Positions 11,128-63,871 of a DNA stretch of 64,000 bases are shown piece by piece. This DNA comes from Lingula anatina. Lineage: Eukaryota > Animalia > Brachiopoda. Position 1 is the first letter of the stretch. Each line of letters begins with the position of its first letter. The stretch spans positions 12,276,001-12,340,000 of the forward strand of contig CM120640.1 in assembly GCA_051362555.1 (NCBI GenBank), read 5' to 3'. The translations under genes were made by a program, and so were the position numbers. The notes below the pieces were generated by a model, which did no database searches, was not told the origin of the DNA, and saw only the letters and a program-made list of their open reading frames with translations.

Positions 11128-14100
11128 TCAAATGGAGTCTAACACAAGCCAGTCTTCACTCTCCTCATCAAAACTGCACTCTCCTTGACTATCCGAAGTT
11201 GGTTCCGTTTTAACTGTCACTTGGCTAGGCACATCATTCACACTGGAGCTTGATGGCAAAGTTTGTGAAAGGAGAGAGAAGGCATCCAATGGCTCAGACT
11301 TGATCTTGATGGCACTAACCGTTTTTCCAGGATTTGACGATGGAGATTTCTCGAGAGATCCACGGTTCTGATCCTGTGACAAGTGATTACCACTCATGAC
11401 TGGTTGAGTATCCAAGGAACCAATGTCATCAAAGAGGTTGCGCTGGTTTTGCTTGGTCTTAGTAAACCCTGCACCAGTACTCTTTTTACAAACATTCTTG
11501 CCCTTGTTGGTTTTCTGTTTTGGTTGTGGTTTCTTGAACTTTAAAGAAACAGGAAACTTACTATGAAATGGTCTCTTCTTTGCAGTTGGCAGTTGCGTTC
11601 CTTTCGAGCTAACTGCAGACACTAAGGTCTCAATATCTTCCTCTCCATCTTCAAGCCCTTGCTCCTGTAAGAAGTCACCAATGGCATGCCCCACATCTAC
11701 TGAAAGACTTTCACAATCATCAGAGAGAGCAGGAGACCTGGACATGCTGTAGTCACCTTGTTCTGCATACTCCTGCATGCAGTCCTTGAGAACAACTTTT
11801 AGGTCAAAGGAACAATGCCCATTTTTTGGCCAATGAACAGTTGAAAAATGTTCAGAAAATGTAGTTTTGTCCATGGTGGCGTATGCGCATAAGTGGCAGC
11901 AATAATACAAATTGGTGACCTTGGGATTCCTTACGGCAATGTTTTCTTCTGCATCCTTTCCATAATGGTCCACCTCAATATGATGCTTGATTTTAGGCCT
12001 GAAATATAAGATAGAAAACGTACTTAATATGTGCAGTCTTGATTCAAAATGTCACTGCTCAAGGTTTTAAAATGGAGTCAATTTAGCACCAAATAACTTT
12101 GTGCAAAGCTTAACATAGTTAGATTTAGCATGTTAAAACATAAAATTAAAAAAAAATCAAATTGGATCTCTGCCTCTGCCAATATTTTATTTTGCTGAAA
12201 TCACACAATGTCTCACAGAAAGATGACCCATAAGAGAGCCCAGTTTACATTTATAGGACCAGGCTCATCATTAACCCAAAAATAAAAAAAAAAACAACAT
12301 ATGCAGTGCATCTTTAAGTTATTATTCAGAGATGGAGACTTCCCATTTAGTGAATAAGTCTGATAATTTGGCATGGGGTTCACACTTGCCCCCTTCCGTT
12401 TTTACTGCTGATCTGTATCGATCTAAAAAAATGATTCCCAAAAAGTCGGGAAATCAGCCAACAGTCACATGCATGAAAAAAAAAAAACTACTTCTTCAAT
12501 ATTAGATAAAACACCTACTTCTGTGAATTGACAATACCACAGATGCCACATAAGTATCTGCCTCCATAATGGACCCATGCATGATGTTTCATATGACCAA
12601 TTATCTGAGTGACATAACTGCATACTGTCAGTGGACAATGATACAGTCTCTCTGCTCCTTTTGGCGTGAAAGGTAACTCCATCTCATAACTAAAAAAAAA
12701 AAATGTTTTCTTGAAGAAACACCTTTGTATTTTTAACAGTCAGTATAATCTTAAAACTTAATAGCCTCATCTACTTACGGAGAATAAAATGAATGCATTT
12801 ACTGTGTGCAATGATTTACCAACATTTTTGTTTTTAACTAATTAATTTAACTCCTGTACCGCAAACTATTTTAAGAAATTTGACTTACTTATTAAGAGTG
12901 CATTTTTCCACTTGAGAATGGAAAGAGAGAGGTGGGGGTCTCTCAATGCCAGCTAATTCTTCTTTTTTGATTTTTGCCAGAGGAAGTAGGTGACCCTCAT
13001 CTTCAGGTCTTGGTCTTTTCCTCGACCCGTTGGGTACTCCAGTTGTCTTTTCTCTAACCAGACTTTTTGCCTTACTGTGCAAGTGGTCCACTTCCTCATC
13101 TAGTTTATTCTTCTTTGCTGGCGGTGATTCACTGCTGAAATTAACAGCTTGGTTCTCATCAAATGAGGGTGTCTTTGTCTGCTTATCTGGCTCACTTTCA
13201 ATGGCATGTGCTATATTGAGCATGGTCTGTACAGCAACCTTTCTTTTGGAGTCAGACGAGACTGACCTTGGAGTGGTTGCATTTTCCATAAATTCATCTA
13301 GCAAAGTTTCAAGGTCTTTCTTCTTCTGATACTTGATCAGTTTCTTGCGCCCAAAATGAGATTTTTCAAAATGCCGGTCTAGCATTCTTTCTGAGCTTGA
13401 TTCCCTGCTACAGTAGCCACATCTAACAGGGTTGTAATTCAGATGAGAGGACATGTAGTGGTGACGCAGGACGTCTAATCTTTTGACACTATAAGCGCAA
13501 ATTTGGCAAAAGAACTGCAACCTTGGACTTCCAACTTCAACCTCAATCTTTTTACCTTGTTTTATATGGTCGACCATTTTCTTCATATCAGCCTCCTTTT
13601 GCTTGTCTATGCAATATGTGTACTTTGATATTAATCCTTTATGCTTCTGTCTGAAATGTAGATGCATCAAAGGCCTGGTACAGGTTGTACAACTGCATAA
13701 AGCACACTTATATGGCTCATAACCCAGGTGAGATCTATTTACATGGAACTGCACATGGTCTGTCCTCATTCTAACAGGGCATTCTGTGCAGTAAAAATAA
13801 AGATGGGATTTGGGGGGTGGTTGCTTCGGTCTGACTCTTTTTTTCTTGGGTTTGTCATCTGAAGGCAAATCATCCACTGTACTTGCTGTACTAACTGATG
13901 CCCCTGTAGTGCTGGAGATCACTGTGCTGCTGTCATCTTCAGATGACTCTTCTGATGAATCCTCAGGTGTGTTGTCAAGTGCTGCTTGCTTGTTTAGAAG
14001 CTGGCTAGAAGTGTTGGAGGTGATCGTCTTCTTGGCAGCTACTACCCTAATGGCACAAGTGAGTTGTGGATGTATAGCCACCAGGTGTTCCTTCAGAATC

Positions 14101-17100
14101 CTGAACTTATCATGACGTTCATTGCAATATGCACACTGGTATGTAGCGCTTTTTCCATGACCAGCCCTATGAGCTTTTAGCTTGCTGCCTTTTCTGGTCT
14201 TGTATCCACACAACTTACAAACAAAGGGCTTGACGCCTAAAGGTAAGCCTAAAGTTGCTGAGGGAGATTTTGGCACCACTGCCCCCATTTTGCTTCCTTG
14301 ATAAGTGTTTGAATCCAACTTTTTACACCTATCTACTTCTTCCAAGACTTGCTTCCATTTAGAGGTATTCTTTTTTTCAATAACCACTGGGTCTTTGCCT
14401 TCATGGAACCTAGCAGCATGCTTTTCTGTGTTGCTCTTTGTGCAAAATTGTGTTTTACAAATCCCACAAGAGTAAGGTTTATAGCCAAAATGTTGCATAG
14501 TATGGGTCTTAAAATTCTCTCTTCTGGTAGTGCTGTGGTGGCAATGTCTGCAGACATAAGTATATAAACTAACCAATTTTTTGCTTTGTGTCTCTGTAAT
14601 ATTCCTTTTCACCAAGTCCTCTTTTTGCAGGTCTTGATCAAACACAAGAGTTCCCTTTCCATTGTGCTGTTTTTGAATATGGTTGTTCATGCCATTTGTT
14701 GTCTGACATCTATGGTCACATTCAGAGCACCTCATTGGATAATATGATAAATGCCTCATGACATGCCATCTTGCACGGTCAATTCTGGGAAAAGATTCCT
14801 TACAAAGACTGCAAACATACTGAGCACCCTTGCTATCATGGTTTTCTGTATCACTTTTGACACTGCTCACTTCAGAGCTGCTAGGTCTTCTTTGAGCTGG
14901 AATACTTGCACTTCTTGGGGAATTCTCTGGATGTATCTGCATGACATGCCGTCCTATAGAACTATGATACCCAGACTTGAAGTCACACAAAGGGCAATAA
15001 TACATTCCATCCTCATTACGAGTTACCTTTACTCCTGCCCTAGTCTCTCCTGCAGATGAAACACTTTGTTCTGTGAGATCTTTTAATTGAACTCCTTCTT
15101 TATTTGCTTTCTCACTTTTTTGGATGTTTTTTAGCTCATCTGCTAATTTTGAGAGAAGGGATGTCTTGACATATGAAATCTCTGTTGGCATCCCTGGGTG
15201 ATTTTCAGCGTGATGTTTATTAGCTGCTTCCAGAGTTCTTCCTCGGTAAGGACAATGTCCACAAGTGTAGGGTCTATGGTTGTAATGTATGTACTTGTGT
15301 TCTTTCATGTTTTTGGAATTCTTGGTAGTGTATGGGCACATAGAGCAATGAAGCACCTTCTCTGCTGATTTTTCCTCTTGACTTTGACTTAATGGTGCTG
15401 ATGATAAAGAGGGAGGCCCAACTGCAATATTATTTGTTGCCTTTATGTTTGCTTCAGGTTTAGAGGGTTCTACTAGCTGCTTAATTTTCAGTTCTTTTCC
15501 TTTGTGCATGTTAATGCTGTGGATTCTGATACTGTAGCGTGAAAATGCTTTGAAGCTACAATATCCACACTTGAAAGGACGAAAACTGCTATGTCGCTTG
15601 CAGTGTTTGTGTAGAGTGTCACGGCTGTTGAAAGTTTTGGAGCAAATTGGACAAGCATGCAAACTTCCAGGGCTTTTCTTCAATGTCTCTTTATGTGATG
15701 AAAGCAGAGCATCAATGTCCTCCCCTCTGGCAAGGCGTGGTTTTCCAGGTTCCTTCACCTTTGGGGTAAACTCTACTCCAACTTCACTGTCAGAGTTCCC
15801 AATAAAAGAATTGGACTTCACATCAGTATGAGCATTTTTACCATTATCAATTTCACACTGTCCTGTGATTTTCAAGAAACGTAGTGCTTTTCCACGATGC
15901 TTTGTCTTCATGTGCAATTTCAGCAATTTTAGCTGTCTCCTGGAGTAGCTACAAAACATGCATTTGTATGAAGTGTTCAACAAATTTGGGTGGGCCACCT
16001 TTAAATGACTTATTATTCTAACAATTCCTCTACTAGCTGGAGTGCTATAGCCACAAAGAAAACACTCAAAATTGTTAGATTGTTGTGACCTTTTGAACAG
16101 TGTTATGCCTTCATCTTCTCCTCCCTCCATATGGACCCTTCTTATGTGGTTTCGCATATATTCTTGCCTCTTTTCATATGGTAGTTTTCCCCCTGCAGCA
16201 GTGTGAGGGCAAAAAGGACAGCTTGCTGAAAACCATTCAACTCGGTTTGAACTTGAACCCTTATCATGAAATGACCTTTTATGTCTGGAAACAGTCCTGT
16301 TTGAAGGAGTGGTAAAGTCACAGTAGGAGCATGCCCAAATAACTTGCTCTTTCTTTTCTTCTGGAACTGATGACAGAGCCGCAGCTTCTTTGGGTCTTTT
16401 CTCTTTATAAAACCATTCAGATTTATCATTTCCTGTGTACTCCAGCACACTTTCATCATTTGAGTTGAAAGGTATGCTTCCAGAATTTGTTGCATTTGTA
16501 TGTTTTGGATTTGTTGTTTTAATTGATTTGTAAAATGTACTTCTATGAAATTTCATGTGATACCTCACAGACTGTTTTGAATCAAATATTGAATTGCATC
16601 GCTTGCATTTGTAAGAGACATCTTCATCTACAGTAGGTCCCACTTCACTTGTATTTGTTGAGGTTGTCAGTTTTTCTGCTATTTTGCCAAAATGCTTATT
16701 CAAGGTATGGCGATAGATATCTGCACTGCAGTAGACAGACGTGTAACTGCAGTACACACACTTGTATGCCCTCTGTGTTGGTGGCTGTTTAAGTGCAGGT
16801 TTCCCAGTCGGAGTAGATATCTTCTGTATCTTTGATGAATTTACTGTTGAGAAACTGTTTTTCTTCTGCCTTACACGATTTTGGCCCTTTTCAACAATGT
16901 ATAAAGACATTATATGTTCTGCTTGAATATGGTCCTGCATAAAAGCTCTGTCTTCTGTTGAAAAAAGGCACACCTGACATGTGAATTTGGTGTTCCCCAT
17001 TTCCTCATTTTCAGCCTCGATAGAGCCATCAGAAACAGCCTTTGAGGTGGTACAAGATCCTGCAACTCCCATCAAGAATGACATATGAATTTTCTGAGTG

Positions 17101-20100
17101 TGACGTATGACGTCCTGTCTTCCATAGAATGAATAGTAATCACAGTACATGCATCTGAATATTCTGCAACCAGGACTAGAACCACCTTGGTGGGCTTTCA
17201 ATCGACTTCCCTTGGAGGGTGAAGTAGCACCTTTTAATGGTGAAGTAGTGCCTTTAGTGGGTGAAGTACCTGCCAGTGAAACGTTACCCCTTTTGTTATG
17301 TTCCACTGCATAGAAAGATTGAAGGTGGTTATCTTTGAGGTGCAGATACATTTTGTCTTCATTTTCTGAGACATAATCGCAAATCTGGCACTTAAATTTG
17401 GTTGTAGAGTGAGAAACTTCATCATTCTTGTCCGCATTTTCTACCTTCACTTTGCATTCAACCTCAGGGGAAATGCTTCTCATCAAGAAGTCAACATGGT
17501 GCTTGATTGAGTGACGAAGGACATCTATTCTTCCATACATGGACTGATATTCACAATATAAACATCTAAAAATCTTTTTCCCCTTGTGTGCACTTGGTGA
17601 TGCCTGTCCATGTTTTGACACCTCTGAAGACGATATTCTAGTAGACATCTGATCAACTTCCATAAGGTTTGAAGGTTGATCCTGTGTCTCACTTTCAACA
17701 TTGTCATTGGTGGAAAGTGAATCATCCAATGCTTCCGTCTTTTGAGTATCATCACTTCTTGTAGAATTTACTGCCGTCAGTTGCTGTGTATCAACAATCT
17801 CATACAGTGTTGGGATGTGGTAAGTGGTGATATGTGTTCTCATAAGTATTGGAGCCTTTGTGGAATAATTACAAATGGTGCAAACAGGAATCTTGTCTTT
17901 CTGCTCTTTTACCATTGTATTTTTTCTTTCAACATCACTAGGTGAATTGGTAAGCATTGAATCAATCTGAGGAAACCCCATTAAGGCATACATGTGCTTA
18001 CTACGTACATGTCTCATGGTGTTGTGTCTATGATCACTTTTATAGTCACAGTATAGGCATTTTGTAATTTTCCCTTTCCAAAATCCTGGACTAAATGCCT
18101 TAGCACCTGAACTTGGTGAGAAACATTCTGGTTGTTCAAGTATTGCTTGTGTTTCACTACAGTCATTAGTAGCAGCATTTAATTCTACACTAGCATCAGA
18201 ATTAGGCTGAGCATCAGCTTTCAATTCCACACTTGCATCAGAATTAGGGGCAGCTTCAGCTTGTAATTGCATACTTGCATCAGAATTGGGTGCAGCACCA
18301 GCTTTTTGTCCATCTGATATCAGAGATAAATTGAACAAGGGAGAAATGTTTGTTTCTCCCTTAAATTGAGTGGATGATACTAGATCCTGAAGATGTGTGG
18401 TAATGTGTTTTTTTATAGATGCTATGGATTGTGAAGAAAATTGGCACAAACGACACATTCTCTTCTCATCTTTATATCCATTCTCTTCATTCAGACAGGT
18501 TGCACCTGGACCTACTGTCTTAATGTTCATATCCTTTGGTGACCCAGCACTGTTTGGTGAATTTTCCTTTGCAAACTCAGCCAAGTTAACAGTTTCTTCA
18601 TTACTCCCCACTATGTTCCCATTCTCTGTAGGTGTAACAACTGCATCTAGTTGCATAGAAATATTTGGAGCTACTGGCTGGTCCATGGTTTCAAGAGGTG
18701 TGCTGTGCTTGCTTATTTTTCCACCATATGTTTTACTACCTAAACCCATCAAATACTGCATGTGTTGTGTTTTTGTATGTTTAATGACATCACTCTTGGT
18801 ATGTCTCGTCTTGTATGCACAAAACATGCAATAAAACATTGCTGGGGAGACAGCTTCTCTGTCATCATGGAACTTTGGCTTGCTGGCACTCTTTGGGGAT
18901 TTATTCCGTCTTGGGGATAATTCTAGGCGTGCTTTGGGCATATGGCTTACCAAATCTCTGGCAGATATATCTTTACCAGGAGACTTTGAAATATACTCAA
19001 TTTTATACATTGAGGGTAGATGCTTCTCCAAGTGGCTTTGTACTGAAGACTTAGATGACGAGGCATAGCCACAAATCTGACATGTTGGAATATTTTCTAT
19101 TGCAGCAGTGGATTCAGCTTCTAAAGTATGGTACCCTATATCCATGGCAGTTGAGCTACATTCTGTTTGCTTTTGTTGAGAATTTTCTTCAACTGCTGTT
19201 ACATCTTTGGAAATTGTTGGGGTTACCCCCAAGGGTTGTTTGAAGCCTCCAGTATTTGTTTCAACTGGATTGTTCTCAACTTCTTTTTGTTCACCAAGTT
19301 CAACTGCTGTACTAATCAGCTTATCAACAAGCTCACTAATTGTTTCCTCTTTCTCACTGATGACACTGGTTTGAGTGCTGTCCAATTTAACATCTGGAAT
19401 TTCAGCTGTTGCTTTTTTCATCTCAACACTGGGCATATTTGCATTGCCTTCCTCATGTAAAGCCTGCCCATTAGCTGGCATCTCTGCCTCTGCACCAACT
19501 GAGTTTATGTTGGAAGTATATACTGTATAATTTGGATCTTCAGCACTCCCTGACTGTATTGTATCCCTTTTGCCTTGCCCAGAGACCAACTGTGACCTTT
19601 GTTCTTTATCATCTTGCTGTATTGGAACCTCAGCTATTTTACTACTGTCAAGATACGTATGATCAGACAACTCATCCAGTACAGCATCTATGCTTGTTTC
19701 TTTGCCTAAATTTGTTTCAGGGACTTTTGCATTGGTACTCACAGTCTGACTGTTACCATCTGCTGTTGTAGCTTGTAATTCTTTTGCAAAAGTATTAGAT
19801 GGCAAATCATCTGCACCCGTGTCAGAGGTGCATTTTGCTAATTTTCCAACATTGCTTTCTTCATCTTTTTTAGACAACTCCATAGAGCCCAGATCTGGTG
19901 CATCTGATGTATCTATTACCAACTTGCTAGAATATAACTCATTGTACTCAACATCAGCATCTGCATCCTTGCTGGCTTTTGTTAAATCTTTTGCTAAATC
20001 TGGTATGGAAGCCAAGGTGCTTTGTGGGGATTTGTTGATTTGGGCTTCTTCACTCTGTATAACTTGTTGAGCTTCTAATTTTGCTTCATCTCCAATACTG

Positions 20101-23100
20101 TCAGCAACAGGTCCTTTGTTCTGTTCAACGGTCTCTTGTACTGTGACTTCATTGTTTGTAGAATCATCCATGATGCTTTCAGTTTGATTTGTTACTTTGG
20201 AGAAATCTACTTCACCTGAGCAGTTTTCATCATTGCCTGGATCATTTCTTTTACCTGCCTCTTCCTTTTGCTGCTGGACTTCTTCGTTGGTGTCATCTGG
20301 TTTATGTTCTAAACCCATCAGTAAATCAAGGTGCCAAGTGCGGGTATGGCGCAACACGTGTGCCCTGTTGTAAAAGGAATAATAATCACAATAAAGGCAA
20401 CGGTAAATTTTCACCTGTCGTACTGTCACATTTTCTCCTTTACTCTTTGTAGTGTATGTTCCTCCTGCATAATTCTGTAAGGATTCAAGTATGTTTTCAT
20501 TCTCTCTCCACTGTTCAAGATCCTGTGGCTCTGCCTTGATTTTAATAAGTGAGTCTTTGATCACAAATTCTGGAACTGAAGTGGACTGGTCTTTCAAAGG
20601 GCTAGGTGTTTGATTTGCATCGGTGTCATTCTCATTTATTGATGTCAATGCTGATGATTGTAGGTCATCGCCAGACAGTTCTGCAGCACTTGTTTCTTTG
20701 GTATTGTCAGTAAAAGGTGACTCCGAACTTGTAGCTACATTTTCATTTCCTAAGAAAGAGTTAGTTTTTATTTCAGTCTGATCATCTGATGGCAGGGCAC
20801 TGCTGACAGGTTCAGGTAATCCTGCTGAATGCGGCTGAGTCTCTGTTTGGGTCACACTGGGGCTTCTTGACACACTTTCAGTTTCTGAAGCACCCCTTGT
20901 TTCTGCTACAATTTTGAACACCTGTCCTTTAACAACTTCTTTGACATTCACCCTGATTGTGAGAGGGGGTTTGTCTTTATGATATTTCTGCATGTGCTGC
21001 AGCAACATAAACTTCTCTGCATGGCTCCACTTGCAGTAACCACACATGAAGGGTTTTATCTTGTAATGAATAGTGAGTACATGGCGTTTCATAGCTGTGA
21101 TATATTCAGACTGGTAGCTACACAGATCACACTGGAGAAGGTAAGGTTCTACTCTTTTGAAACCACAGTGTACAGAATCTGATGCCAAAAACTCTACTTG
21201 AGGCTGTGATTTTTCAGGCTGCAATGCATCTTCACCAACTGTTACCTCATAACCTTGCAATACTTTGACAGGTTGGCCTACATGGACATTTTCTGAATGT
21301 TTTGCTACATCCTCCTTAGTGTTGCTGTGAAATCTGCAGTGTAAACACTTGAACTGGATTAATCCCTTTGACTCAGTGTTAGACTCATCATCTGTAAATC
21401 GAAAGATTTTACAGCCTTTGGTAGGATGCTGGTTCTTGCAGTGTCTGGCAACTTTAGCCCCTTCAGCAGAGCTGTACTCGCAATGCATACAATGATATGG
21501 TTTTAAGCCAGCATGTACATAATTAAAATGCCTCCTCATTTTATCTGGCCTTCTGTTTTGAAATTCACAGAGGAGACACTGGTACAAGTCTTTATCTACC
21601 AGTTTCCAATTCTCCTGTTCTTTTCCTTTCTCTTCGGTCTGACTGAGGCTTGCTGTTGGTTGGGAATCATCTTTTATTTCACAATTTTCATTATCTTCAT
21701 TGCATACAGACACAACTTGCAATGAACCCGTTTTTCCATCTTTAGTTGGTATTACCCAATGTCCATTTGAGTTTTTCTCCATTTGATGAGCTTTCTTGAA
21801 ATGACGCAAAAGATTGTAGCGCACTTTACTTCTAAACTCACACATTGGGCAAGCAATTTGCATTTTGAAAACACTTTCCTGTGGCACGCAGAATACTTCT
21901 CCGCTACTTGTTGTGTGATCTTTTGTACCTACAGTAGGAAGTCCTTCATTTGAAGATGAAATGGGAAGTGGCTTTTCATGCACTGGTTTTTGGGCAGCTG
22001 GTGGTCTTTCTAGAAACTCTTGGTGATTCCCTTTGAAATGATTGGTCAGCATGCCTTTGCTCTGATAATCCACATGAATGTTACACCTCATACAGCGATA
22101 AAGACTGCCAGCCTCTTCACAACTACTGTAGTGAAAACCATATTCTGGTTTCTGAATGCCATGAGTATAAGAGAGATGAGAAAACAACACTGGCTGAGCA
22201 CGTGTTTTATAGTGCTCGCATTCATGGCACTGATATACAGTTCTCTTGACACAAATGGTTACATAATCCTGGTTTTCTATCAACCTCTCTTGGTCTTTTG
22301 TAATATTTGATTTTGTCTTCTTCTGGCTAGTTCTTGATGTGTTGTGTTTAACCATGTGCTGCTTCAATAAATCTTTGGAGGTAGCACTAAATGAACAGAT
22401 CTCACAGTGATATTTGTCAATGACAGATATTCCAGACTCCTGTAGAAGCGCTTCCATCTCTGATGCCTGGCTGCTTCCATCTGGATCCATCCCAGTTTTC
22501 TGACTGCTTGGTGAATGTCCAATAAATAGTGGGCTTGAACCTATTGTTACAACACCAGTGGGATGCTGTTTTTTAATGTGTCTTTCAATTAGCTCTTTTT
22601 GAGTTGAGCTATATCGGCAGGACTTACAAGCATACATTGTAATGAATGGCTTGCTTCCATCAACAAATTTGTGCTGTGACATATGACGTCTGAAGCCCTT
22701 GATAAGATCAGTGTTGAAAAGACAAAGTGGGCACAGAAAGCGTTGACAATTTGACAAAAATTCTTTAGAAACATCAGCTTCCAATACACGTGAACCACGC
22801 GATGCCATCTCTTTTACAGTTGGCCTAGGATCTTGATTTATGCCTCCTGAGGACACCCCCCGAGGTGCTGGGGGAGTACCAACATTTGTGCTGGAGCTTG
22901 TACTGACTGGCTTTGAATTGAACAGCCTCTTGACAACTTCATATCTCACCTCATCAGCAGGGTGCAAATTGTCAAAATGGTGGTCTAAGATTATTTCATG
23001 GTTAGCTTGGAAACTGCACACCTGGCAAACATATATTCGTATTCTGATGTTCATTTGATCTGGATGCAATGCACTCATGTGAGATTTAAAAGATTCTTGA

Positions 23101-26100
23101 GAGTTTGCCCCATACATGCAGAGAGTACAAATAAAGCTCTTTGTTGCATGCATGTCTTCATGAGAGCTTAAAATGCTTTGACTAGAGCATTTAAAAGGGC
23201 AATGCTGGCATTTCAAATTTTTTTCAGCTTCTACAGCATTTGGGGTACTATCCATTCCAGCATCATTTTTCATGGTCTTCTCCACCTTTTCTTTCTGTTC
23301 CTTCATAACTTCTGCTTGTGGAGGTTTGTATTTCAATATTTTGGGTCTTTTCTGAATACAGGAGATAAATGTGCTCACAACTATCTTCCTAGCTTCTGCA
23401 GGGTGTTCAGTGCTAATGTGTGTGATCAATGTCTTCTTACTTTGTGATACCAATTTGCAGTAAGGGCATTCAATCAATTTTACAGTGCTGGCAGTAAGGT
23501 GGTTGACTAGATCTTCCAAAGTGTTAAACTCCATCTTGCAGTAATAACAACTGGCAGACATATTGGGGTGCTGACTGTTGCAGTGTGCTTTGTATGCTAC
23601 CACAGAATCAGAACCAAACTTACACCCTGGGAAAGAACACTGGTAGAGACGCTTGGTCATTCTCTTCATGTGCTGCTTCATGTGAGTGATGATCTTATCA
23701 TCTGTATCACATGTGGTGTCACAATAGGCACAAGGATACAAGTTGCTGGAGTGCTTGATTCTCAGGTGCATTTTGAAGCCATCTACATCATCTGTGAAGA
23801 AAGCACATTGGGTGAACCCACACTGGTAGAAACCAAGTGTGTTATGTGAGGAAACTTTCTCAGTTGTAGTAGCTGGTCTCCCTGAAGTCATGCCACTGGA
23901 CTTCCCTGAAATAAGCTGGACAAAGTTACTATCTCCATAGCCCTGCATTTCTCTTTCAGCTCTTTTCATTATTCTTGGGCCCTTATCCAAGTCTGGTGGT
24001 GTTTCAAGCAGTCCTTGGGAAATCTTACTATTTTGAAATAATTCACGCAAACTTTGGCACTGGTTAGTTGAATCATGTGAAACTACATCTATATGTTCCT
24101 CAACCAGGTCAGGCAACCCATTCTCTTCACTATTAGTTGTTTCTTTATCCCACTGTTGCTGATGGCTCAAATCTGTTGCTGAACCCAATATCGGAGTCTG
24201 TATAGTGTCTGAATCTGTCAGCTCATTCTGTTCTGCTTTGCTTCCAAAATCTGCCCCATTCAAACTGTAAGTGGCAGCTATGATGGGCAGGCCATCATTA
24301 TTTTCCTTTTGGGGTGATGGTGTGACAATTGTGGTCTCACTGACTGGCTGAGACTCTGTGTGTAACCCACTGTCTGTTACTGAAGAAACATCCCTACCAC
24401 TGGTTACAACTACTTCCGTACTTGGTGGAATTGCTTCAACTTCCTTGCTGGATGTCTGTTGATCATTTTTTTGCCTTTCAACCTCAGAATCCACTTGAAA
24501 GGGAACCAAAATGGAAAAATCTTAGCATTTTTTGTAACAGAAATGAAGAGTTTAGTTTTGGGATATCCTTTTAAAAAACTTATAACCAAAATACATGGTA
24601 TTATCTACTGGAGGGCCAATTAAATATTATTTTTAAAAAAATATATATTTACCATACTTTGTGGTTTCTTAATAACTGATTAGGACAAAAATTAAAATAT
24701 TTGTTCCCAATTGTCATATTACTGGCATGCTCGCACACAGAAGGGCTTTATGTCATATTACCGATTTTTCTAGACAGGTATAAAATTTTATTGTTAATCA
24801 TAAGGATACTAAATATGTTTCATCTCTGAACAATAATTAATGGTCTTTGTGACATTAAAAATAAATAAATAAACAAGTCATCAGAATCATTTACTTGAAA
24901 CTGAAACGCTTCAGAGAATACTTGTATCAAATGTCATGTATTTTTATCTTCTATTAATTAAAAAAAAAAAATGAAAAATTCAAAATACCTTCAGCTATAA
25001 CAAGTCTCCCTTCTTCCTCATCACTGTCCACTGACAGGTCAATTGCAACTGGCTCTGACGTATCTGGTAAAACACACATATGTACAGGTAAATAATCAAT
25101 ATTGCCGCATTCAACCAATCCAAACTGTCACATGGTAAAACAAAGCCAAGTTACATTTATTAATTTATCTTGTTATTTGCAGCAAGTTAAGAAATAAATA
25201 GGACCAGGGGCCCTGAAGGTGACAGTACATAAAGGTTAAGGGCAGGAAATGTTTATGATGTAATTATGGTATTATAAGAGTGATGGAAGAAGGAAAAATC
25301 AGATGAAGATCAAATCCATAACATATGCTGCTGTTTAGAAGCACAGGACAATAAATGTGCCTGATACTATACTTTTAGGTAAAAAATCAATCAATCATTT
25401 TGGGGAATAAAAATCCACCAGATAAGTAATGGTTACCCACAGATCTCTTCTTAACAAATGTACCATCTTTAGATCCCAAATCAAAGCTGTTAGTTTTTGG
25501 TTTTACCATGCTGTTTATTCATCATCAAAATAGGATTCAGTGGGTTAAAAGAGCCTTTCATTGGTAAAAATGTTCTTTCTTTGCTTTGAAAAGATTCACA
25601 TCTTACTAAAGAAAGTTGGATGAGAAGTGAGCATTAGGGTGTGCAAGTAAGACAGGATAAAATGACTCATATACTTTTTATTAGAAGACACTTTAAAAGG
25701 ACTACTCAGAGCCATGCTAATGCTGTCAAGCAAATAGGATATAATAGGAATCACAAATGAAGTGAGGTATTGAACATGTAGATCAAGGACAAGACCCAAT
25801 AAAAATCAACAAGGAACAAAGTAGTCCGATTTTCCATGCAAGCATCTCCCACTGTGAAAGAAATATCTGCCTTTACCCAAGCCATGGTCAAGCTTATACC
25901 TTTCTAGCTCTACCCAGTATGTCACAGTTAATCTATGTTTTTTAAATTTAAGTAGATAGCTAAATTTTCCTCCTGCATATATATGTGTATATATATAAAT
26001 ATATATATATATATGCCAAGTGAACCAAAAAATTTCAAAAACAGCTTTGATGCTACACATACCTGCTATGCCAGAGTTCTGCTTTCCAGTTACTGTTTTG

Positions 26101-28314
26101 GACTGATCAGATGTTTGCTGTTGGCCATGAAGCCTATTGCCTGTTACACTGATTGAGTCTGTCATTGGCTGAGAGGATTTTGGCACTGTGGGCTAAACAA
26201 AAATAAAACAGTTGTACTCGGTAAGTTGTACTGAGATAGACAGAAAATAAGGAACAGCTGGGTTGGTTTTATTTAACAACATATAAGCACCACATTAAAA
26301 CTGCTTTGTCTGTCTGTTTTTATTCTTAACAACGTGAACAACAATGACCAAAACTATATAGACAATATTTTAAATTTACATTATAAAATCATAATGTCAA
26401 GGGAGTTATTGAAATTGATATTCATATCAAAAATAAAAATTTAATATACCAAAATGCAAATTATACAAAAGCAGTAACAGTTAGCATACTGGGAAATTAT
26501 TTTACTTAATTCTATTATTTAAGTAAGGTAAGGAAGCAACAGCGTCTATTTTTAGATCGATTCTGATACGGTACATAAAAAGTTTAAATATTTTAATTAT
26601 ATTCTGTCTCCTTCATCAAAATGAGCTATTGATGTTAAGATGCAGCATACACAATCTTGAATATGTCCAATCTTGCATGGGTGAAAGTGAACCTCCCACA
26701 TTGCCTCCCACATACATCTTTGGTGAAAAATACTTATCTCCTCACATCTTACAAATTTCAATTTAAGCTAGAAAAATACTTAACAAGCTTAAAAAGCGCC
26801 CAGCTGACATTATTAGGCAACTTAAATATCTAACTAAAACTTTATAAGATGGGACTTACCAAAGAAGGACTTTGTTTGGGAATAACAAAGTTAACCTTTA
26901 TTGCATCTGCTACAGACATAGCATTCTTGATGGCATCAATTGCTCTGTTATTTCTAATCTGTGGTAAATCTGCATTATTCACTTCTACCAGTTTTGTTGC
27001 ATTCCTCCTATTCTTCTCCATGTCCAGTGAAGCCAGCATATTTGTAATTAGTGAGCAAACGGGAATATTACCACTGACTAGTGTGGGGAAATTGCAATGT
27101 GTGCACCTTAAATAGTTCTTGTGAAGGTGTCCCCATACGTGAACGTAAAATAATCGCCTGTCCTTTGTCTGGGCACCACAGGTTTCACAAACATAAGCAT
27201 TGTTCACAATATTACATTTCAAAACAAGGGAGTTTTGCTTATGGTAGCTTTTGGGAATTGGTGTACTTGTTTGGACACTTGATTTTCCTTGCACTACAGC
27301 TGCTGAAGGACTGGTACTTGAACTAGGCTTGCTGACAATCAAAGGCATAGGCGGAACAACTAAGGCACGAGTATCTGATACAGTTTCTTTTTCCCCAGAA
27401 GCAAGATGGCCAGTACTGCTCAAAGAGAGACCAGCAATATTGTCCCCAGAAACTTGCAAAGACAATGTGTTGGTCCCTGGTGAAGGAGTAGAACCCTGAC
27501 CTTGATGTATTAATTGACTTGCACTTGAAAATGTTTCTTTTAGCTCCTGTGGTGCAGATTTTTGAGGGGGTGGTATGTTGAAACAGCTGATATCCTGAAA
27601 CTTTGACCCAGATTGTAAAATATTCAACCAATATTTGTTATAATTACTGGGATGTGTTTTCTCGGCACTAGATCCTGTGCCATAGGCTTGCTCTTTTGTG
27701 ACCTGAATATCAGTGTTTTTTTCCTGGCTCTGTGTTTCTGGTTTTTGCTCAGGAATACTGACACCAGCATTATCTTTCTGGGTGCTGGAGGCCACATCTT
27801 CTGGTTCGATGATAGTGATATCACCATCATCTTCTGAGGTCTGACAGACTTGTAGCAATGGCTCGGTTCTGGCACCTGTGAAGGAAACATTGTTTTCCTG
27901 CCCTCTCCCAGGACTTATATTGACTGCACTTCCAGGTTCAACCTGTACATCTTTGAAAGGACTTGGTGCTACTTCTTCATCAGGCTTTTCACTTTCTGTT
28001 GGAAAATTTTCATTTCCAAGTTTATACCCGCTACTGGATGCAGGGTTTTGAAAGTCTCCTATAACACCACTACTAATGCCTGAAGCCTGTGTTGCTTTTT
28101 TTTCCTCAGTGGGCACTGGTTCTGAAACCGATTGAGATGTGCTTCTGATAAACTGCACAAATTGTTCAACAAGGTCAGTTTCTTGGCTCTCCTTTTGCTT
28201 AACCATAGGTTTGACCTCATCTGTCACTTTGCTTTCTGAGTGCCTGCCCACTTCAGAGTTATCAGCCACATTGGTATTACCATCTGCCAAAGGCTTATTG
28301 ATAGATTCCATCAT
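11128..28314 (-). CDS. Giant multi-C2H2 zinc-finger protein (~4711 aa, ~50 fingers), 5 coding exons
   Basis: Exons (minus strand): 28314-26860 (ATG at 28314, acceptor ttccag before 28325, donor TTG|gtaagt), 26192-26063, 25063-24989, 24493-12889 (11,605 bp, donor AA|gtaagt), 11998-11128 (TGA). Intron phases 0,1,1,2 all join in frame; total 14,136 nt = 4712 codons. About 50 C-x2(4)-C-x12/13-H-x3-4-H motifs counted by eye; no canonical TGEKP linkers. Confidence 0.85.
12889..24493 (-). CDS. 11.6-kb internal exon of the zinc-finger gene (matches the 3874-aa ORF)
   Basis: Uninterrupted ORF 12885-24509. Acceptor tttcaag|TG at 24493 and donor AA|gtaagt at 12889 match the phases of the neighbouring exons. 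Confidence 0.9.
17209..17270 (-). repeat. In-frame 21-bp x3 coding repeat (GTSPTKG/TTSPLKG/ATSPSKG)
   Basis: ggtgaagta at 17218, 17239 and 17260. Confidence 0.8.
18171..18296 (-). repeat. In-frame 42-bp x3 coding repeat (AAPNSDASxxLxAx)
   Basis: gcatcagaatt at 18193, 18235 and 18277. Confidence 0.85.
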
Positions 28315-28575
28315 GCAACTGTTATCTGGAAGAAAACATGTCCTATAAGTCACAATAAGCAAATATAATTTATCAAACATATCTGAACATATTAAAATGA
28401 ACACATTATACACAGTTTGCTAAGTCTGAGACACATGAAGCTTCTCTTATTCAACCGATGAAATAAAGACATTTGTTCTAAATAATATACATTTAAACTT
28501 CAAAAGCTTCAGATCTGTGGATTACTTTTCATAATCTTAGTACAAATGGGAGTTCTAAGTATAATCTGTTCTAAG

Positions 28576-28780
28576 CAGGGCTTTTCCCAGGATTGGGGGT
28601 ACAGGCCATCCAAAATTAACACCTGTAATTTCCTACAAAATTTCAGGGAGTCCAAGTATGCTTTAAGCTGTCACATTTCCAAAAAATCCATAAGCCTTCC
28701 AGCCGCCGAATATATAGGCAGTCCAGTGATTCTGGCGGCCGTCCAAATGACAGCTGGATGGTTTGCTGGGAAAACCCTTG
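28576..28780. mobile_element. hAT-type MITE
   Basis: Imperfect 15-bp TIR cagggcttttcccag / ctgggaaaacccttg. Exact 8-bp TSD gttctaag at 28568-28575 and 28781-28788. Confidence 0.88.
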
Positions 28781-28797
28781 GTTCTAAGTATAACTTA

Positions 28798-29055
28798 GGC
28801 TTCATTCACATGCAATGTCTATATTCTAAATTCTATTTTCTATTCGCGGTATGTCTTATGATCACGGTCTGTGCCCTGAATATCCCGCGGCGTAATTACT
28901 GGCAGCGCGAGCCAGTTACTATAAGTTACTATAAGTAACTGCCTCGCGCTGCCAGTAATTACACGGCGGGATATTCAGGGCACAGACCGTGATCATAAGA
29001 TAGTGCGAATAGAAAATAGATTTTTAGAAAATAGACATTCCATGTGAACGAAGCC
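28798..29055. mobile_element. MITE family B, internally deleted near-perfect palindrome
   Basis: Same arms as 10185-10663 with no central spacer; TTA TSD at 28795-28797 and 29056-29058. Confidence 0.92.
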
Positions 29056-29660
29056 TTATTGTCATTCCTGTGGTTATTCCAAAATTTCATTAAAATAAAA
29101 TTCTGATTCCTAAATACTCTACTGTGATATTTCTGGACCTTCTACATTTATTTTGATCATGTTATAAAGGTTTTGCAAGAAAATAAAACTTCAATGTCAT
29201 ATGCAGGATGCAGCACAGCAGGCTAACTGCAATTATCAAAAGTGATGTTTAAAATCAATTTCACAAAGTTAAAAACTGTGCTTAAATGCAAATTCAAAAT
29301 AAAAATCGATGTTGATAACATGTGGGTGGGCTAACTTATTTTCTTTCAACCAAATCACAATTAAATAACTGATAAGTTGGTGAAGAATGACTGAAAAAGA
29401 GTTACACTGAACACAGTGTCATCTTAATATTTGAATCCAGTTATGGCTGGTGCCCTTGGGTTTGGAAAAGCATCCAGTCAGGGCTTAAGATTTGTGACTT
29501 CTTTTATAAATGTATATTCCACATAGTTTATATAATGCAATTCACTATTTGTATTTCCATGTGAACTGTTACATTTTTAGGTTTCTGTACCCTCTTTTTC
29601 CAATGCTCCATTTCCACGAACTCTCTGACACAAGTGTAACAATATATTCTTAACTACTTA

Positions 29661-29897
29661 GGGACCCTATCGTACTAACTTTGGATCGATCTATCTCCGA
29701 GGGGATTCTTGCTAAATGGAAATCAAACTAAGTGGCTTAGATATCTGTCACGGCAAGGTGGCAGGGGTATAATTAATGACGGCAGTTTCAGTGGGTGTAC
29801 TAGACATCTAAGCCACTTAAGCTGAAAGCAATTTAGCGAGAAACCCCTCAGAGATGGATCAATCTTGTTAGATCGATCTAGGTATGGGAACCCAGTC
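29661..29897. mobile_element. MITE family A copy
   Basis: gggacc...ggatcgatctatctcc...tagatcgatctaggtatgggaacccagtc, flanked by TTA on both sides. Confidence 0.85.
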
Positions 29898-31331
29898 TTA
29901 CATAGTATCCAGGCAAACCTTAAGTAAGATGACATTCAAAATATATTAGTCTCACTGAACTGGGAACTAAACTAATCCACCCACTGGCCTCCTCTGCTGA
30001 TGGTTTCTTAAATGTATATCTAATATGAAGGTCACAGTGGGTAATGATGAAGAAGATAACTGAAGCATGGTTCCAAGTGTTTTAGGTAGGAGATCACTGA
30101 AGCCAGTGACCAGAGATGGAGATAGCAAGTCAAAGAGTGATATTGATTTTTCTGCCTCCAGCCATGTAAATGAATTTCAACAAATAAAAACTTACACAGA
30201 CAAATGGAGCAGTTATAATTTTTCAGAAATCAAATTCCAGTACATTCACAGCAAATCAGTAACAGAAATTAACTAGACATACAGTGACTGGGAGCAGTCA
30301 TTAATTATACCCCTGCCATGGTGCTGTAACCCTCCTCATGGCGAAGGTGGAAACCTTTTGTTGAGGCCAGATGGTACTGGAATAGGCAGGAGGTTTTCCG
30401 ATAGGCCAAAATCAAAATGGCAGCAATCTAGGATGCACTACAAGTGCAATTTTGGAAAGGAACCTTCCTTTGAAATCTATCATGTCAAACTCCATGGCAA
30501 ACATCTCACATGCACTATGTGTCCAATTTTGGAAAGGAACCTTCCTATGATCATAAGGAATCTATCATGTCAAAATGAAAACAATCCTCAAAAGGTTTTT
30601 CCATATGGCCATATGGGATACCGACATCTCCTTTACATGGCGACTGTTCCCATAAAAAGACAAACTGTTTACTTGCAGAATTTATCCAGACAGTAGGGCG
30701 CATGCACACAGAAGGAAGAGTACAAAACAGTACCCCCCCCCCCCCCCCCCCCCCCCCCAATCATACACCAACATTGGATGCCTCTGCTGGTTACTGGATA
30801 TAGCTGCTGGATGCCTCCAAGTCAACACTTAGATGTGTCCTGCTAACACAAGCAACATAAAAAAACCTACACTGAGAATTTGATGACAATCAATCAAATA
30901 CAACAGAAGTTAACAAGAAAACAATGTAGGTTACATGATTTAGCTTACCAACATCCAGTCAGAAGTATGCAAATAAATGACAAATTACCCGTGGTAAAAA
31001 AATTGGAAAATGAAAAGAGTGAGGTGCTCAAATAAAAACACATCACTGCAAATTTAATGGAAATCAACTACGTACAACAGAAGTTAACAGCCAGAAACCA
31101 ATCTTGTTGGATAACTAGAAGCCATCACCAAGTCTTGTTGGATAACTAGAAGCCATCGCCTACAACACCAGGCCAAATAAGGCCTGGTGTTGTAGGCGAC
31201 ACTAAAATAGTGAAATTCGCCACTGTCCATCTCCATTATGAGGGCATCTCAAAAATAAAAAATAAAAACTGTAAAATTGGTTTATAGACTATAATTAATT
31301 TGTGAGCACCATTTACATATGGTATAACTTA

Positions 31332-31578
31332 GGGACCATTCCCACTGATATTTGGATCAATCTATCTCCCTGGGGAGTTTCACTAAATTGCTATCAACTT
31401 AACTGGCTTAAATGTCTGTCATGCCTAGTAAAGCTGTTAGGGGTAATTATCTTTACCCCCAAGCTGATTCGGTAGGGGTGACTGACATTTAAGCCAGTTA
31501 AGTTGATAGCAATTTAGCGAGACTCCCCAGGGAGTTAAACCAATCCAGATGAAGCGAGCTAGGCATGGGAACCCAGTT
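31332..31578. mobile_element. MITE family A copy
   Basis: gggaccattccc...ggcatgggaacccagtt; homologous to the 29661 and 39164 copies; left flank TTA. Confidence 0.85.
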
Positions 31579-34500
31579 TTCGGGTGATTAGGAGAAAAGT
31601 GCTGAAATTTCCAAGAAAATTTTCTTTTGTTACGTAAGGTCTATTGTACATTGTGTGCCTGTAAGTTTAAGACTAAAAGACCTTTTAAAATGAAAATCAA
31701 TATATAATTATAGTAAAGAACTATCCAAATATAAAGTAGCATTGTTTCAATATCAAAAGGATAAAATATGTAACCTTGACACAGCATGATTCCTAATGAA
31801 ATCTGTTACAGCATGCCATGTGAGTGATCAAGTAGTTAGTGCATACTTGTCTTCAGTATGAGAACATATTGCATGTCAGAAAGTGGAAAACAGTTCCATT
31901 CCATTCCACAACAAAATGATAGACATGCAATGAACACGCTAATTATCTAGTACAGAAAATCATTTAATTAGTTTTATTAACCTTTACAGACAAGCCCAGA
32001 TGTTTCATATTCTGTTACTAATAGCAGCTAAGAGTCTGGAGTACACGATAAAATCAAATCCTGCCAATGCTGGAAAAAGTGGGTAAAGATATGCTTAGAC
32101 CCCTCAGTAAAAATCAAGAAAAACATTAAACTTGACAATCAAATCAGTCAACCAGTCATCAAAAATATTCAGGCCCAGTAGACCTTTTGTGCCCCACCCC
32201 ACCCCTTCCTCAACACTCAGTTTCACTCCAGGTCTTTTGATCTATTTCTAGCTATCTCTTACATGTCCCTGTATCAGACAGATAATTAGTTATACTACTG
32301 TAATGTTGTCAGAATTGACAAGTTGGGGGGGGGGGGGGGGGGGGGACATACCATCAAGCATCCACATACAGTAATTCCCTCTAAGTGTTCCTTGTCATTG
32401 CATTTTTTAAAGAAAATTGCTCTTTCTACTTGGCAAGAGTCTGCTGCTACATGCTGCCAACAAGCACTCATTCAATCTGAACTAAAGCAAGAATCTTCTG
32501 AAGTGTGGTAGCATACAGCATGCTTTGACCTATATAAAACACCTAGCATACCAGGAGTATAGCATACAGCTTATTATGGCCCAGTCAGTGCATTACACAC
32601 CATGTGGCTTATGGTCCCTGCATTACAGTTCAAAACACAATATGGATCCCAAGTCCAGACACAAATTACTATCACTGCAGTATCCATCATATAAAAGATT
32701 TGTGAAATTCATTCAGGTCCCAATTTTGACTGCGTGTTATTTTTACTTTTCATATTGAATCTTCAAAGTTCATTCTCACAAGTGTTAAAAAAAGAAACAT
32801 CAAAAGAAGCAGCATTCTTGGTCATTTTACTTCAAGAATAATAACTGAACTTATCAGCTGACATATAAATAAGCATTCTCTGCCACAAGCATAAAAATGT
32901 CTCAACGGGCAGCTGTTTTACACCAATCATATATAAAACATGGGCTTTGGGCACTGTTGACTAGATTATCAACATAGTCACTGATTCCAACTTCACAGCA
33001 GTCACATAAACCACAGCCATAAAATTAGTTAAGCAAAACAGGGTGGCAACTATTTTTATCCAAATGACTATTGCTAATGTAGAAATATTTATAAACAGGT
33101 TAATGTCATTAGTCTTGGGTGCCCATTTTTGCTCTCCCTGCAACCCTTATCTAGTTGACTTGGATGTTACCTGGCAGAAATGATTAAATAATTGGACTTT
33201 ATACTAGGTTTCACTCAGTTCAACGAAGAAGTGAATTATTGATCAAAATATAGAAGCACTTGAGAACACACGCATGGTTTTGAGATGGCTTATATAGAAG
33301 GTTTCAACCACAACCAGCTAGATAAAAAAATACTTTCACAGAGTTGTATTATTTGACAGTCTTTGCACTACAAATTAATCAATAACCATTCTTATTATGT
33401 TAACTATGGGAAGACAGAAGAATGACAATGAGGGCAGAATGAGATGAAAATGGTCCCAATGTGATCATTCGTTGCCTATATCTTTATGGACAAACTGTAC
33501 TTTGTTTACACAGGTCAACTGATCTAACTACTAGAAAATTGGGTCAGGACCAGCTTGTGTTCAGAAAGGGCAGAAAATATGCTCGGATCAATCACCAGCC
33601 ACCTGAAAGTAGATTCTGAATTGGACTTATGAGTCTCTGGTGGCCTTAGGCTATACCATAACCACACATTTATATGGTTAGACAACCTCTGTAAAGTTGA
33701 CAACAACCCAACAAAGACTGCTAGTGTAGCCTCTTATTTCTGACCCTGCATGAAGCAAATGAATCATCTAGAACACATGGAAATGACTTGAGCAACAGCA
33801 CTTGTTCACAGTCAATCCCATAGCATGTTGGATATTATGTTCAATCTATTATGGATAATAAATTCGCTCTAATCAAACAAGAAAAACAGAACAGATTCTT
33901 CTCATGTGACTATCATGATATTTAAGATATTATATAAATAAAAGTCTCCCATATCAAAACTGTATCCACACAGAGGGTCTGTACCATTCCCCTGGAGCCA
34001 GATTAGACATACAGTACACCAAAGGAAGTTCTAGATAAGGTGTTATATATGCATTGTTTGGTCCAACCAAAATGAGGCCACTGGATGTAGGAAACCATAT
34101 CCTCCAATTCTGAGAAATTTAAATCAAGAAGTTGTAGTTGTACAACTTCTTTGAACAATATTGAAAATTGTATGGCAACTGATTAAGTCACCCAATGGGA
34201 TATTTCTTCTAACTATCCAACTCAACATTTTGCTCAAATTTTTCAGATTAGAGACAAGCAGAAAATAAGTATTAGAATGACCTGTGTACTGGCAGATTTT
34301 AGATAATTGTAAAAACATCTGGGTGCAGAACACATTTCCTCCACCTGCATTACTGCATAAACTGAAAATATTGCACATACAATAGCACAAAGAATTTTTC
34401 ATGTATTATCAGTATAGTTGTGTATCATATTGCCTGTACCAGCTCACTGAACAATTGTAAGATATTCTCAAATCATGTCTTCAATGGTCCATTGATCAAT

Positions 34501-34857
34501 CTAAGAAATATGTCAAAAGTAAATCCTGATGAATCAAATTACTTAGACAATAACTGTAGCTGTTATATGAATCAAAACAAGTGTATGAGGACTACATACA
34601 GAAGACAAAAGAAAAAAATTTTTTTGCTTGACTCCACCTCTGAATGAGTTCTAACTTTCATGTATCATGTGCTAGAAGGTGGACAATCAATGCTTGACCA
34701 GCACAAAACTCTGAAGTGTTTCATGACTTGCAACTAACTGGCTATAAAAATGAAGTCCAGTGATTGGCAATTAAAGATCAGTTGCCTTCAACTTCATAGG
34801 CTGTTACACACAGGGCATGGCTTTTATACTGTTGGTCCACTCCTTCATGCATACTTA

Positions 34858-42130: not shown

Positions 42131-42204
42131 ACTAATAAAATAGGAGACAGTTTTACTGTTAAATATTGGGCACAAAGATGGAAAGAATCAGCTTGGTTTT
42201 TTCT

Positions 42205-56056: not shown

Positions 56057-63871
<7,815 letters not shown>

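What the first reader, a model, noticed from the sequence alone, without database searches (positions are those of the whole stretch)
11128..28314. A ~4,700-aa protein with ~50 non-canonical C2H2 fingers, 82% encoded by one 11.6-kb exon
Seen: five phase-consistent exons give 4711 aa. About 50 fingers are scattered as singlets and doublets among long acidic Ser/Thr-rich spacers, lack TGEKP linkers, and often end H-x4-H-P. No KRAB, BTB, ZAD or SET domain is recognisable. Established: widely spaced fingers plus a giant exon characterise chromatin scaffolds such as ZNF462, ZNF518, WIZ and ZNF644 (G9a/GLP partners), not tandem DNA-reading arrays. Inference: this may be an uncharacterised lineage-specific heterochromatin or transposon-silencing scaffold, larger than those vertebrate proteins.
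Basis: partly seen in the sequence, partly recalled or inferred. Interest (0 to 1): 0.8.

Follow-up and report, generated by a model that had tools for sequence, protein, structure and literature searches.

The report
Giant zinc-finger gene-silencing adaptor family
This is an expressed 4,768-residue zinc-finger gene of a brachiopod that belongs to an unnamed family shared with molluscs and ribbon worms, and its conserved short motifs suggest it likely works as an adaptor that brings gene-silencing enzymes to chromatin.

Summary
RNA reads show six coding exons (one was missed) plus a 5' UTR exon. The protein is 4,768 aa, RefSeq's uncharacterised Lingula anatina LOC106171239. The 11,605-nt exon is covered throughout with no internal splice listed; 51-53 fingers, no TGEKP. 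It is not lineage-specific. A profile search finds a family in bivalves, gastropods, cephalopods and a nemertean, sharing a colinear core, two unnamed zinc modules and an intron position. Lingula is longer partly because of six extra pairs of single fingers. An ATF7IP-binding-like motif lies upstream of the core in 36 of 75 members (0.66 expected), Lingula included. An H3K9 mimic (17 of 69, bivalve clade) and a late PxVxL-type motif occur in relatives but are degenerate in Lingula. Base-contact positions of the most conserved fingers are not conserved. Best reading, inferred and untested: a multivalent adaptor for ATF7IP-SETDB1, SUMO and HP1, working like ZNF518 or fly Sov without shown orthology. 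No binding was tested.

The parts
36520..36700 (-). Non-coding first exon (5' end approximate) in a CpG island shared head-to-head with a + strand transcript
   Evidence: joint 28325/36520 in 3 of 4 runs; in-frame stop upstream and CpG o/e 0.66-0.92 at 36300-37300
28326..36519 (-). First intron, 8,194 nt, GC-AG
26860..28325 (-). Coding exon 1 (ATG at 28314; aa 1-485)
   Evidence: joint 26192/26860 in 2 of 4 runs
27010..27222 (-). F1 module: unnamed zinc module, C-x2-C-x12-H-x-W-x-H-x-H ... C-x2-C ... C plus a long helix; two zinc sites inferred
   Evidence: alignment A3; AlphaFold pLDDT 80.7; no significant fold match
26063..26192 (-). Coding exon 2
   Evidence: joints 25063/26063 and 26192/26860
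24989..25063 (-). Coding exon 3; encodes hydrophobic-plus-acidic SIM-like stretches (aa 533-553)
   Evidence: colinear SDEE block in alignment A1; SIM identity inferred
12889..24493 (-). Giant coding exon 4, 11,605 nt, 81.1% of the CDS
   Evidence: stranded depth in every bin and no internal joint listed
24261..24284 (-). FAM-like motif IIAATYSL (aa 624-631), predicted ATF7IP FNIII-binding site
   Evidence: 36 of 75 family members vs 0.66 in shuffles; compared with PMC7706265 and PMC12303078
23349..23831 (-). C1 module (aa 775-935): five fingers, the fourth lacking its second His and likely completed by distal Cys932
20979..23348 (-). Rest of the family core (aa 936-1725), colinear with relatives
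   Evidence: 9 fingers keep their first Cys in 25-29 of 29 aligned sequences; 4 others are not shared or only partly
16509..20417 (-). Six alternating type-A/type-B single fingers in Ser/Thr-rich spacers (aa 1913-3215); internal amplification inferred
   Evidence: alignments A4, A5
13344..16346 (-). Basic region of finger doublets with 7-aa KP-type linkers (aa 3270-4270); likeliest nucleic-acid contact (inferred)
12519..12689 (-).
11128..11998 (-). Coding part of the last exon (stop at 11128); reads continue downstream into a 3' UTR
   Evidence: AATAAA at 9909
11779..11808 (-). FDLKVVLKDC, degenerate counterpart of the molluscan late P-x-V-x-L-x-D motif (HP1-type, inferred)
   Evidence: not picked up by the molluscan motif HMM
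11470..11496 (-). NVCKKSTGA, weak H3K9-like stretch; lacks RK and is not colinear with the bivalve TARKS motif

Best explanation
This is an expressed member of an unnamed family of giant dispersed zinc-finger proteins of brachiopods, molluscs and nemerteans, and it likely acts as a multivalent adaptor that tethers H3K9-methylation silencing machinery to chromatin. Shown: the gene structure, expression, the family, the colinear core, and enrichment of the short motifs. [quoted passage not shown] The F1 and C1 zinc modules would be protein-binding or structural units, and the basic doublets would give low-specificity DNA or RNA contact. The giant exon would simply let disordered spacers and finger units expand without new splice sites, as the six A/B repeats suggest.
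For: FAM-like motif within 600 aa upstream of C1 in 36 of 75 family members (shuffles 0.66), 31 of 70 without seed-like rows, 0 of 43 other zinc-finger hits, and 1 of 69 downstream; present in the brachiopod, bivalves, gastropods and one Octopus paralog. Several members lacking it carry the canonical [IV]xx[VI]xSL form upstream of C1 (P0158, P0142, P0121, P0076). FAMs recruit ATF7IP-SETDB1 and occur in ZFP518A and MGA (PMC7706265, PMC12303078; passages). [TV]A[RK]K[ST] in 17 of 69 (shuffles 1.08). [PLA]xVxLxD in 10 of 94 (shuffles 1.77), late in full-length molluscan members and colinear with the Lingula stretch; ZNF518B binds HP1 by a C-terminal PxIxL (PMC11754734, passages). Base-contact positions in C1 are about as variable as other columns (entropy 2.2-3.6 vs median 3.03 bits) and often acidic.
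Against: No binding or localisation was tested. The family motif has T/S/A where known FAMs have the important V/I three residues before the Leu; half the family lacks it, including Lineus and Octopus P0045. All motif patterns were written after seeing the seeds, and relatives are not independent. The H3 mimic is confined almost wholly to the bivalve clade and also occurs in 4 of 31 unrelated zinc-finger hits; Lingula has only CKKST elsewhere. Lingula has Leu for the Pro of PxVxL and does not score on the molluscan motif HMM. Generic PxVxL (56 of 90 vs 49.0) and PxDLS (4 of 90 vs 5.7) are not enriched; the SIM pattern is enriched about as much outside the family (27 of 75 vs 6.9; 7 of 43 vs 2.5). 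In ADNP a methylated ARKS peptide did not bind HP1 (PMC3022755). A Lingula ATF7IP was not looked up.
Confidence: 0.55

Rival explanations
1. It is mainly a sequence-specific transcription factor whose doublets and triplets read DNA sites, with the short motifs as secondary co-repressor contacts.
For: 8 of 12 short linkers are 7-aa KP/RP-type; aa 3211-4270 are basic; the dispersed-finger proteins WIZ and ZNF644 bind DNA motifs (PMC4365668) and ZNF462 has listed motifs (preprint 10.64898/2026.10.09.758088).
Against: No long canonical array; C1 base-contact positions are not conserved, and in the best-conserved doublet (aa 1526-1576) relatives carry several hydrophobic residues there. The C-terminal doublets were not tested this way.
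Confidence: 0.2
2. It is a scaffold for a different repressor system (NuRD, CoREST/CtBP or a piRNA-linked complex), and the I-x-x-T-F-S-L motif binds a partner other than ATF7IP.
For: The motif departs from known FAMs at one key position; F1 and C1 are unnamed modules with no identified partner; fly Sov shows a giant finger protein can use its own N-terminal domain plus SIMs (preprint 10.1101/2021.07.27.453956).
Against: PxDLS is not enriched; the FAM-like, H3K9-like and PxVxL-like motifs all point to one pathway.
Confidence: 0.15
3. It is the diverged invertebrate ortholog of a characterised vertebrate gene (ZNF462, ZNF518 or ZNF142), so its function is already largely known.
For: Weak Pfam hits to ZNF462- and ZNF142-type fingers (25.7 and 23.9 bits); the same motif kit as ZNF518.
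Against: Those hits are under the cut-off of 27 and unrelated zinc-finger proteins score higher on them; none of 13 named hits is a vertebrate; ZNF462 is described as vertebrate-specific. Only the top 150 of 6,609 hits were seen.
Confidence: 0.08
4. The long ORF is an assembly artefact, an internally spliced exon or a decaying gene.
For: RefSeq isoform X2 lacks aa 2539-2548; short reads only; two joints were not shown.
Against: Stranded coverage in every bin, all five coding junctions read; of 44 listed coding variants none is a stop, fingers carry 4 silent and 0 replacement changes against 15 and 25 in spacers; giant ORFs in relatives end at the shared intron.
Confidence: 0.02

Closest known systems
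ZNF518A/B (vertebrate heterochromatin adaptors)
   Same: Finger cluster plus long spacer; FAM in ZFP518A (PMC7706265); C-terminal PxIxL binding HP1 and a G9a link (PMC11754734).
   Different: About 1,000-1,500 aa with few fingers; no sequence relationship shown here; the FAM and PxVxL of the Lingula protein are non-canonical.
ZNF462
   Same: Many dispersed C2H2 fingers (34 in about 250 kDa), targets G9a/GLP to transposon-derived enhancers (preprint); similar H-x4-H finger style (weak Pfam hits).
   Different: Described as vertebrate-specific; half the size; Pfam ZNF462 profiles stay under cut-off; no F1 or C1 module link shown.
WIZ / ZNF644
   Same: Widely spaced fingers; WIZ is listed as an H3K9-mimic substrate (PMC10611923), like the bivalve TARKS motif.
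   Different: 8-12 fingers; core G9a/GLP subunits; no WIZ-type Pfam domain hit here; Lingula lacks the RK.
Drosophila Small ovary (Sov)
   Same: 370-kDa protein with 21 C2H2 fingers, SIMs, HP1 interaction and transposon silencing (preprint): the closest invertebrate working model.
   Different: Its fingers lie in the C-terminal half and it uses a Panoramix-binding N-terminal domain; no homology was tested or seen.
ADNP
   Same: Dispersed fingers with ARKS and PxVxL motifs, recruited by HP1 to H3K9me3 (PMC3022755).
   Different: Has a homeodomain; none is found here.

Membership tests
C2H2 zinc-finger proteins | Repeated C-x2-4-C-x12-H-x3-5-H units | tested here: met
   43 strict, 51 loose, 53 wide matches vs at most 2 in 200 shuffles; finger folds predicted at pLDDT 86
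KRAB/BTB/ZAD tandem-array zinc-finger proteins | N-terminal effector domain | tested here: not met
   no such Pfam hit in the protein or 11 relatives
KRAB/BTB/ZAD tandem-array zinc-finger proteins | Long TGEKP-linked array | tested here: not met
   0 TGEKP; 35 of 52 linkers are 20 aa or longer
ZNF462 orthologs | ZNF462-specific finger profiles above cut-off | tested here: not met
   25.7 bits vs cut-off 27 for the whole protein; unrelated hits score higher
ZNF462 orthologs | Full-length colinearity, shared introns or synteny | not testable with these tools
   no vertebrate sequence was returned among named hits and no genome is held
ZNF518 orthologs | Homologous finger cluster | not tested
   no ZNF518 sequence was available from a tool result
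WIZ/ZNF644 G9a-GLP subunits | WIZ-type domain and G9a/GLP binding | tested here: inconclusive
   no WIZ-named Pfam hit; binding not testable
ATF7IP FNIII ligands (FAM proteins) | ITEFSL-like motif with key I/V and L | tested here: inconclusive
   Ile at -6 and terminal SL conserved, but T/S/A at -3; the paper's Fig. 3g alignment could not be seen
ATF7IP FNIII ligands (FAM proteins) | Binding to FNIII lost on motif mutation | not testable with these tools
   needs a binding assay or a complex model with an ATF7IP sequence
HP1 chromoshadow ligands | PxVxL | tested here: inconclusive
   met late in molluscan members; Lingula has LxVxL there, plus two unconserved PxVx[LM] in spacers
EHMT-type H3K9 mimics | ARK[ST] with RK | tested here: not met
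   Lingula has only CKKST and AKKT; met in bivalve relatives
Unnamed F1-C1 family (defined here) | C1 module with invariant ligands and distal Cys | tested here: met
   163.7 bits; all ligands and Cys932 present
Unnamed F1-C1 family (defined here) | F1 module, colinear core and intron inside the late finger | tested here: met

The most novel reading that the evidence does not exclude
An old, unnamed family of animal giant zinc-finger proteins, built on two undescribed zinc modules, is the KRAB-independent adaptor that links SUMO, ATF7IP-SETDB1 and HP1 for transposon and gene silencing in molluscs, brachiopods and nemerteans, and it evolves by amplifying finger units inside one giant exon.
Probability: 0.3. 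Interest if true: 0.75.

Novelty: new variant of a known kind. Interest (0 to 1): 0.5.

Why it matters
KRAB-type targeting of SETDB1 is known from vertebrates and Sov from flies (established knowledge). How molluscs and their relatives aim H3K9 methylation is, to my knowledge, open. This family gives a concrete candidate with short, mutable motifs, testable in oyster or scallop material. The F1 and C1 modules are also good family markers that Pfam does not hold.

Tried and rejected
Word-based search of aa 360-1300 for shorter relatives gave one generic hit, with only the 7,981 best candidates scored. PDB sequence and fold searches with C1 gave only generic finger arrays (best TM 0.16-0.19; best Z 3.6). 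F1 gave nothing under E 0.001; its best Z was 6.2 (rmsd 2.7, 69 aligned) to a ribosomal chain, within the background range; this does not show a new fold. The Atlas search with one stored homologue gave generic C2H2 clusters; the window's own stretch could not be searched there. CtBP binding via VAIDLS was considered and dropped (PxDLS not enriched). Generic PxVxL and SUMO-site counts are near chance. The canonical FAM pattern over whole proteins is only mildly enriched (22 of 90 vs 13.0). An iterated F1 profile drifted into ordinary fingers and was not used for counts. No complex with ATF7IP or HP1 was modelled because no tool supplied those sequences. No indexed RNA holder was listed; runs came by species label. 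No earlier scan findings. No paper in the library holds any of six family locus ids; none of 12 listed of 133 SETDB1/ATF7IP papers mentions Lingula. PMC12167477 and PMC10579616 passages added nothing on invertebrates. The spider hit is left unassigned.
Full report
Gene structure. The window holds a 3,878-codon stop-free frame on the minus strand. RNA reads from 4 runs laid on 9600-29500 show all neighbouring joints and a further 171-nt exon at 12689-12519, so the protein is 4,768 aa and the 11,605-nt exon is 81.1% of the CDS. Depth is stranded and present in every bin of the giant exon (3.95-30 in the two deepest runs). No joint inside it is listed; two weaker joints of the stretch were not shown. 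A non-coding first exon joins across a GC-AG intron. The model equals RefSeq XP_023929948.1, uncharacterised LOC106171239 X1 of Lingula anatina, at all but 21 residues. Of 44 best-supported coding variants (a subset of several hundred), none is a stop; fingers carry 4 silent and 0 replacement changes, spacers 15 and 25.

Fingers. There are 51-53 by pattern, against at most 2 in shuffles. TGEKP is absent, but 8 of 12 short linkers are 7-aa KP/RP-type, so the doublets are ordinary in spacing. H-x4-H-P ends only 10 fingers. Pfam gives only sub-threshold finger hits for the whole protein.

A family. Word search gave two unnamed relatives colinear at the N-terminus. A profile of the three against 1.84 billion representatives gave 6,609 hits at E 0.001, of which the best 150 were seen. 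Of 152 sequences examined, 90 score 100 bits or more on a five-finger module, C1, using a profile iterated on these same hits; 9 are intermediate and 53 are generic. Twenty were looked up and 13 carry names: 11 molluscan (Saccostrea, Mercenaria, Mactra, Argopecten twice, Pecten, Octopus twice, Haliotis twice, Patella), one nemertean (Lineus) and one spider. The spider match is borderline (108 bits, an insert in the module, long branch). A tree of 35 chosen C1 sequences recovers bivalve and gastropod groups with paralogs; the deep forks, Lingula's included, are unresolved. Colinearity runs to about aa 1725. Fifteen of 91 family sequences end exactly seven residues after a CxxC, nearly all in the second finger of a late doublet, the point of Lingula's read-confirmed last intron; 0 of 62 others do. 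I infer these are ORFs running off a giant exon into a shared intron, so both orthology and the giant exon are old.

Two unnamed zinc modules. In C1 the fourth finger has Cys869, Cys872 and His885 in 90 of 90 sequences but usually no second His; Cys932, beyond the next finger, is kept in 83 of 88. All 82 rows without the second His keep that Cys, against 3 of 6 rows with it (2 short rows dropped; not corrected for kinship). A cross-braced site is inferred. AlphaFold gives pLDDT 86.4 with a strand leading back to that Cys, but distances could not be measured. F1 has seven candidate ligands and a long helix. Neither has a clear structural match.

Why Lingula's is long. Residues 1913-3215 hold six type-A and six type-B single fingers in alternation. 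Each one's nearest finger in the protein is of its own type; pair scores are 73 (A-A) and 51 (B-B) against about 34 otherwise; no relative scores above 31 bits on these profiles. Internal amplification within the exon is inferred.

Motifs. A motif of consensus [IL]-K-I-x-[SA]-[TSA]-[FY]-S-L lies upstream of C1 in 36 of 75 members with enough upstream sequence (15 dropped), against 0.66 in shuffles, 0 of 43 other hits and 1 of 69 downstream. It resembles the FAM by which MBD1, ZMYM2, MGA and ZFP518A bind ATF7IP (PMC7706265 and PMC12303078, passages), but differs at the V/I position that was mutated in ZMYM2. The paper's alignment figure was not visible, and its text supplements lack the sequences. 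An H3K9-like [TV]A[RK]K[ST] occurs in 17 of 69 (21 dropped as too short; shuffles 1.08), nearly all in the bivalve clade, and in 4 of 31 unrelated hits; Lingula lacks it at that place. A late P-x-V-x-L-x-D motif marks full-length molluscan members; Lingula has LKVVLKD at the colinear place but does not score on the profile. PxDLS and generic PxVxL are at chance. Patterns were chosen after seeing the seeds, and the profile that gathered the hits contained the FAM-like columns, so the enrichments are upper estimates.

DNA reading. Helix positions -1, 2, 3 and 6 of the C1 fingers are about as variable as other columns and often acidic. This argues against C1 reading a fixed sequence. The basic C-terminal doublets were not tested and may contact DNA or RNA.

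Mechanism. Most likely (0.55) the protein is an adaptor for H3K9 silencing: ATF7IP-SETDB1 through the FAM-like motif, SUMO through SIM-like stretches, HP1 through the late motif. Every binding step is inferred. Rivals are a sequence-specific factor (0.2), a scaffold for another repressor (0.15), a hidden vertebrate ortholog (0.08) and an artefact (0.02).

Comparison and novelty. It would work like ZNF518 (PMC11754734, passages), ZNF462 (preprint 10.64898/2026.10.09.758088, passages), WIZ/ZNF644 (PMC4365668, passages), ADNP (PMC3022755, passages) or Sov (preprint 10.1101/2021.07.27.453956, passages). Membership of none is shown. The gene is in RefSeq as uncharacterised; no paper in the held library names six family loci, though most subscription papers and bioRxiv supplements are not searched. 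Verdict: a real gene in an unnamed family, a new variant of a known kind, interest 0.5.

Noticed in passing
window 10181-10667 and about 28828-29058: Two copies of a MITE-like element with long terminal inverted repeats flank the coding part of the gene, one in the 3' UTR region and one in intron 1; reads with loose ends show it is multi-copy. A Harbinger/Tourist-type end is a recalled resemblance.
   Followed up: partly
window 36300-37300: CpG island with divergent transcripts: this gene on minus, and a + strand RNA spliced 37270 to 44221.
   Followed up: partly
window 49033-49392 (+): ORF start resembling an SLC22 organic-ion transporter N-terminus (recalled; Pfam gave no hit); may belong to the + strand transcript.
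   Followed up: partly
window 57681-62742 (-): Exons of PRPF8 (Pfam U6-snRNA_bdg, E 3.7e-55).
   Followed up: partly
window 18510-18540 (aa 2539-2548): RefSeq isoform X2 lacks these 10 residues; I saw no 30-nt GT-AG intron there and no joint was listed, so an allelic deletion is likely.
   Followed up: partly
window 18173-18306: A 42-nt in-frame tandem repeat (3.2 copies) inside the giant exon.
   Followed up: no
proteins P0166, P0138, P0146, P0063, P0095, P0183: Giant zinc-finger proteins outside the core family also carry ARKS-type or late PxVxL-type motifs, so this motif kit may be common in invertebrate dispersed-finger proteins.
   Followed up: no
window 42772-43460: A highly covered repeat with many loose-ended reads on both strands, probably a multi-copy element.
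   Followed up: no
window 34908-35532: Exact 312-nt tandem duplication in intron 1, possibly an assembly artefact.
   Followed up: no
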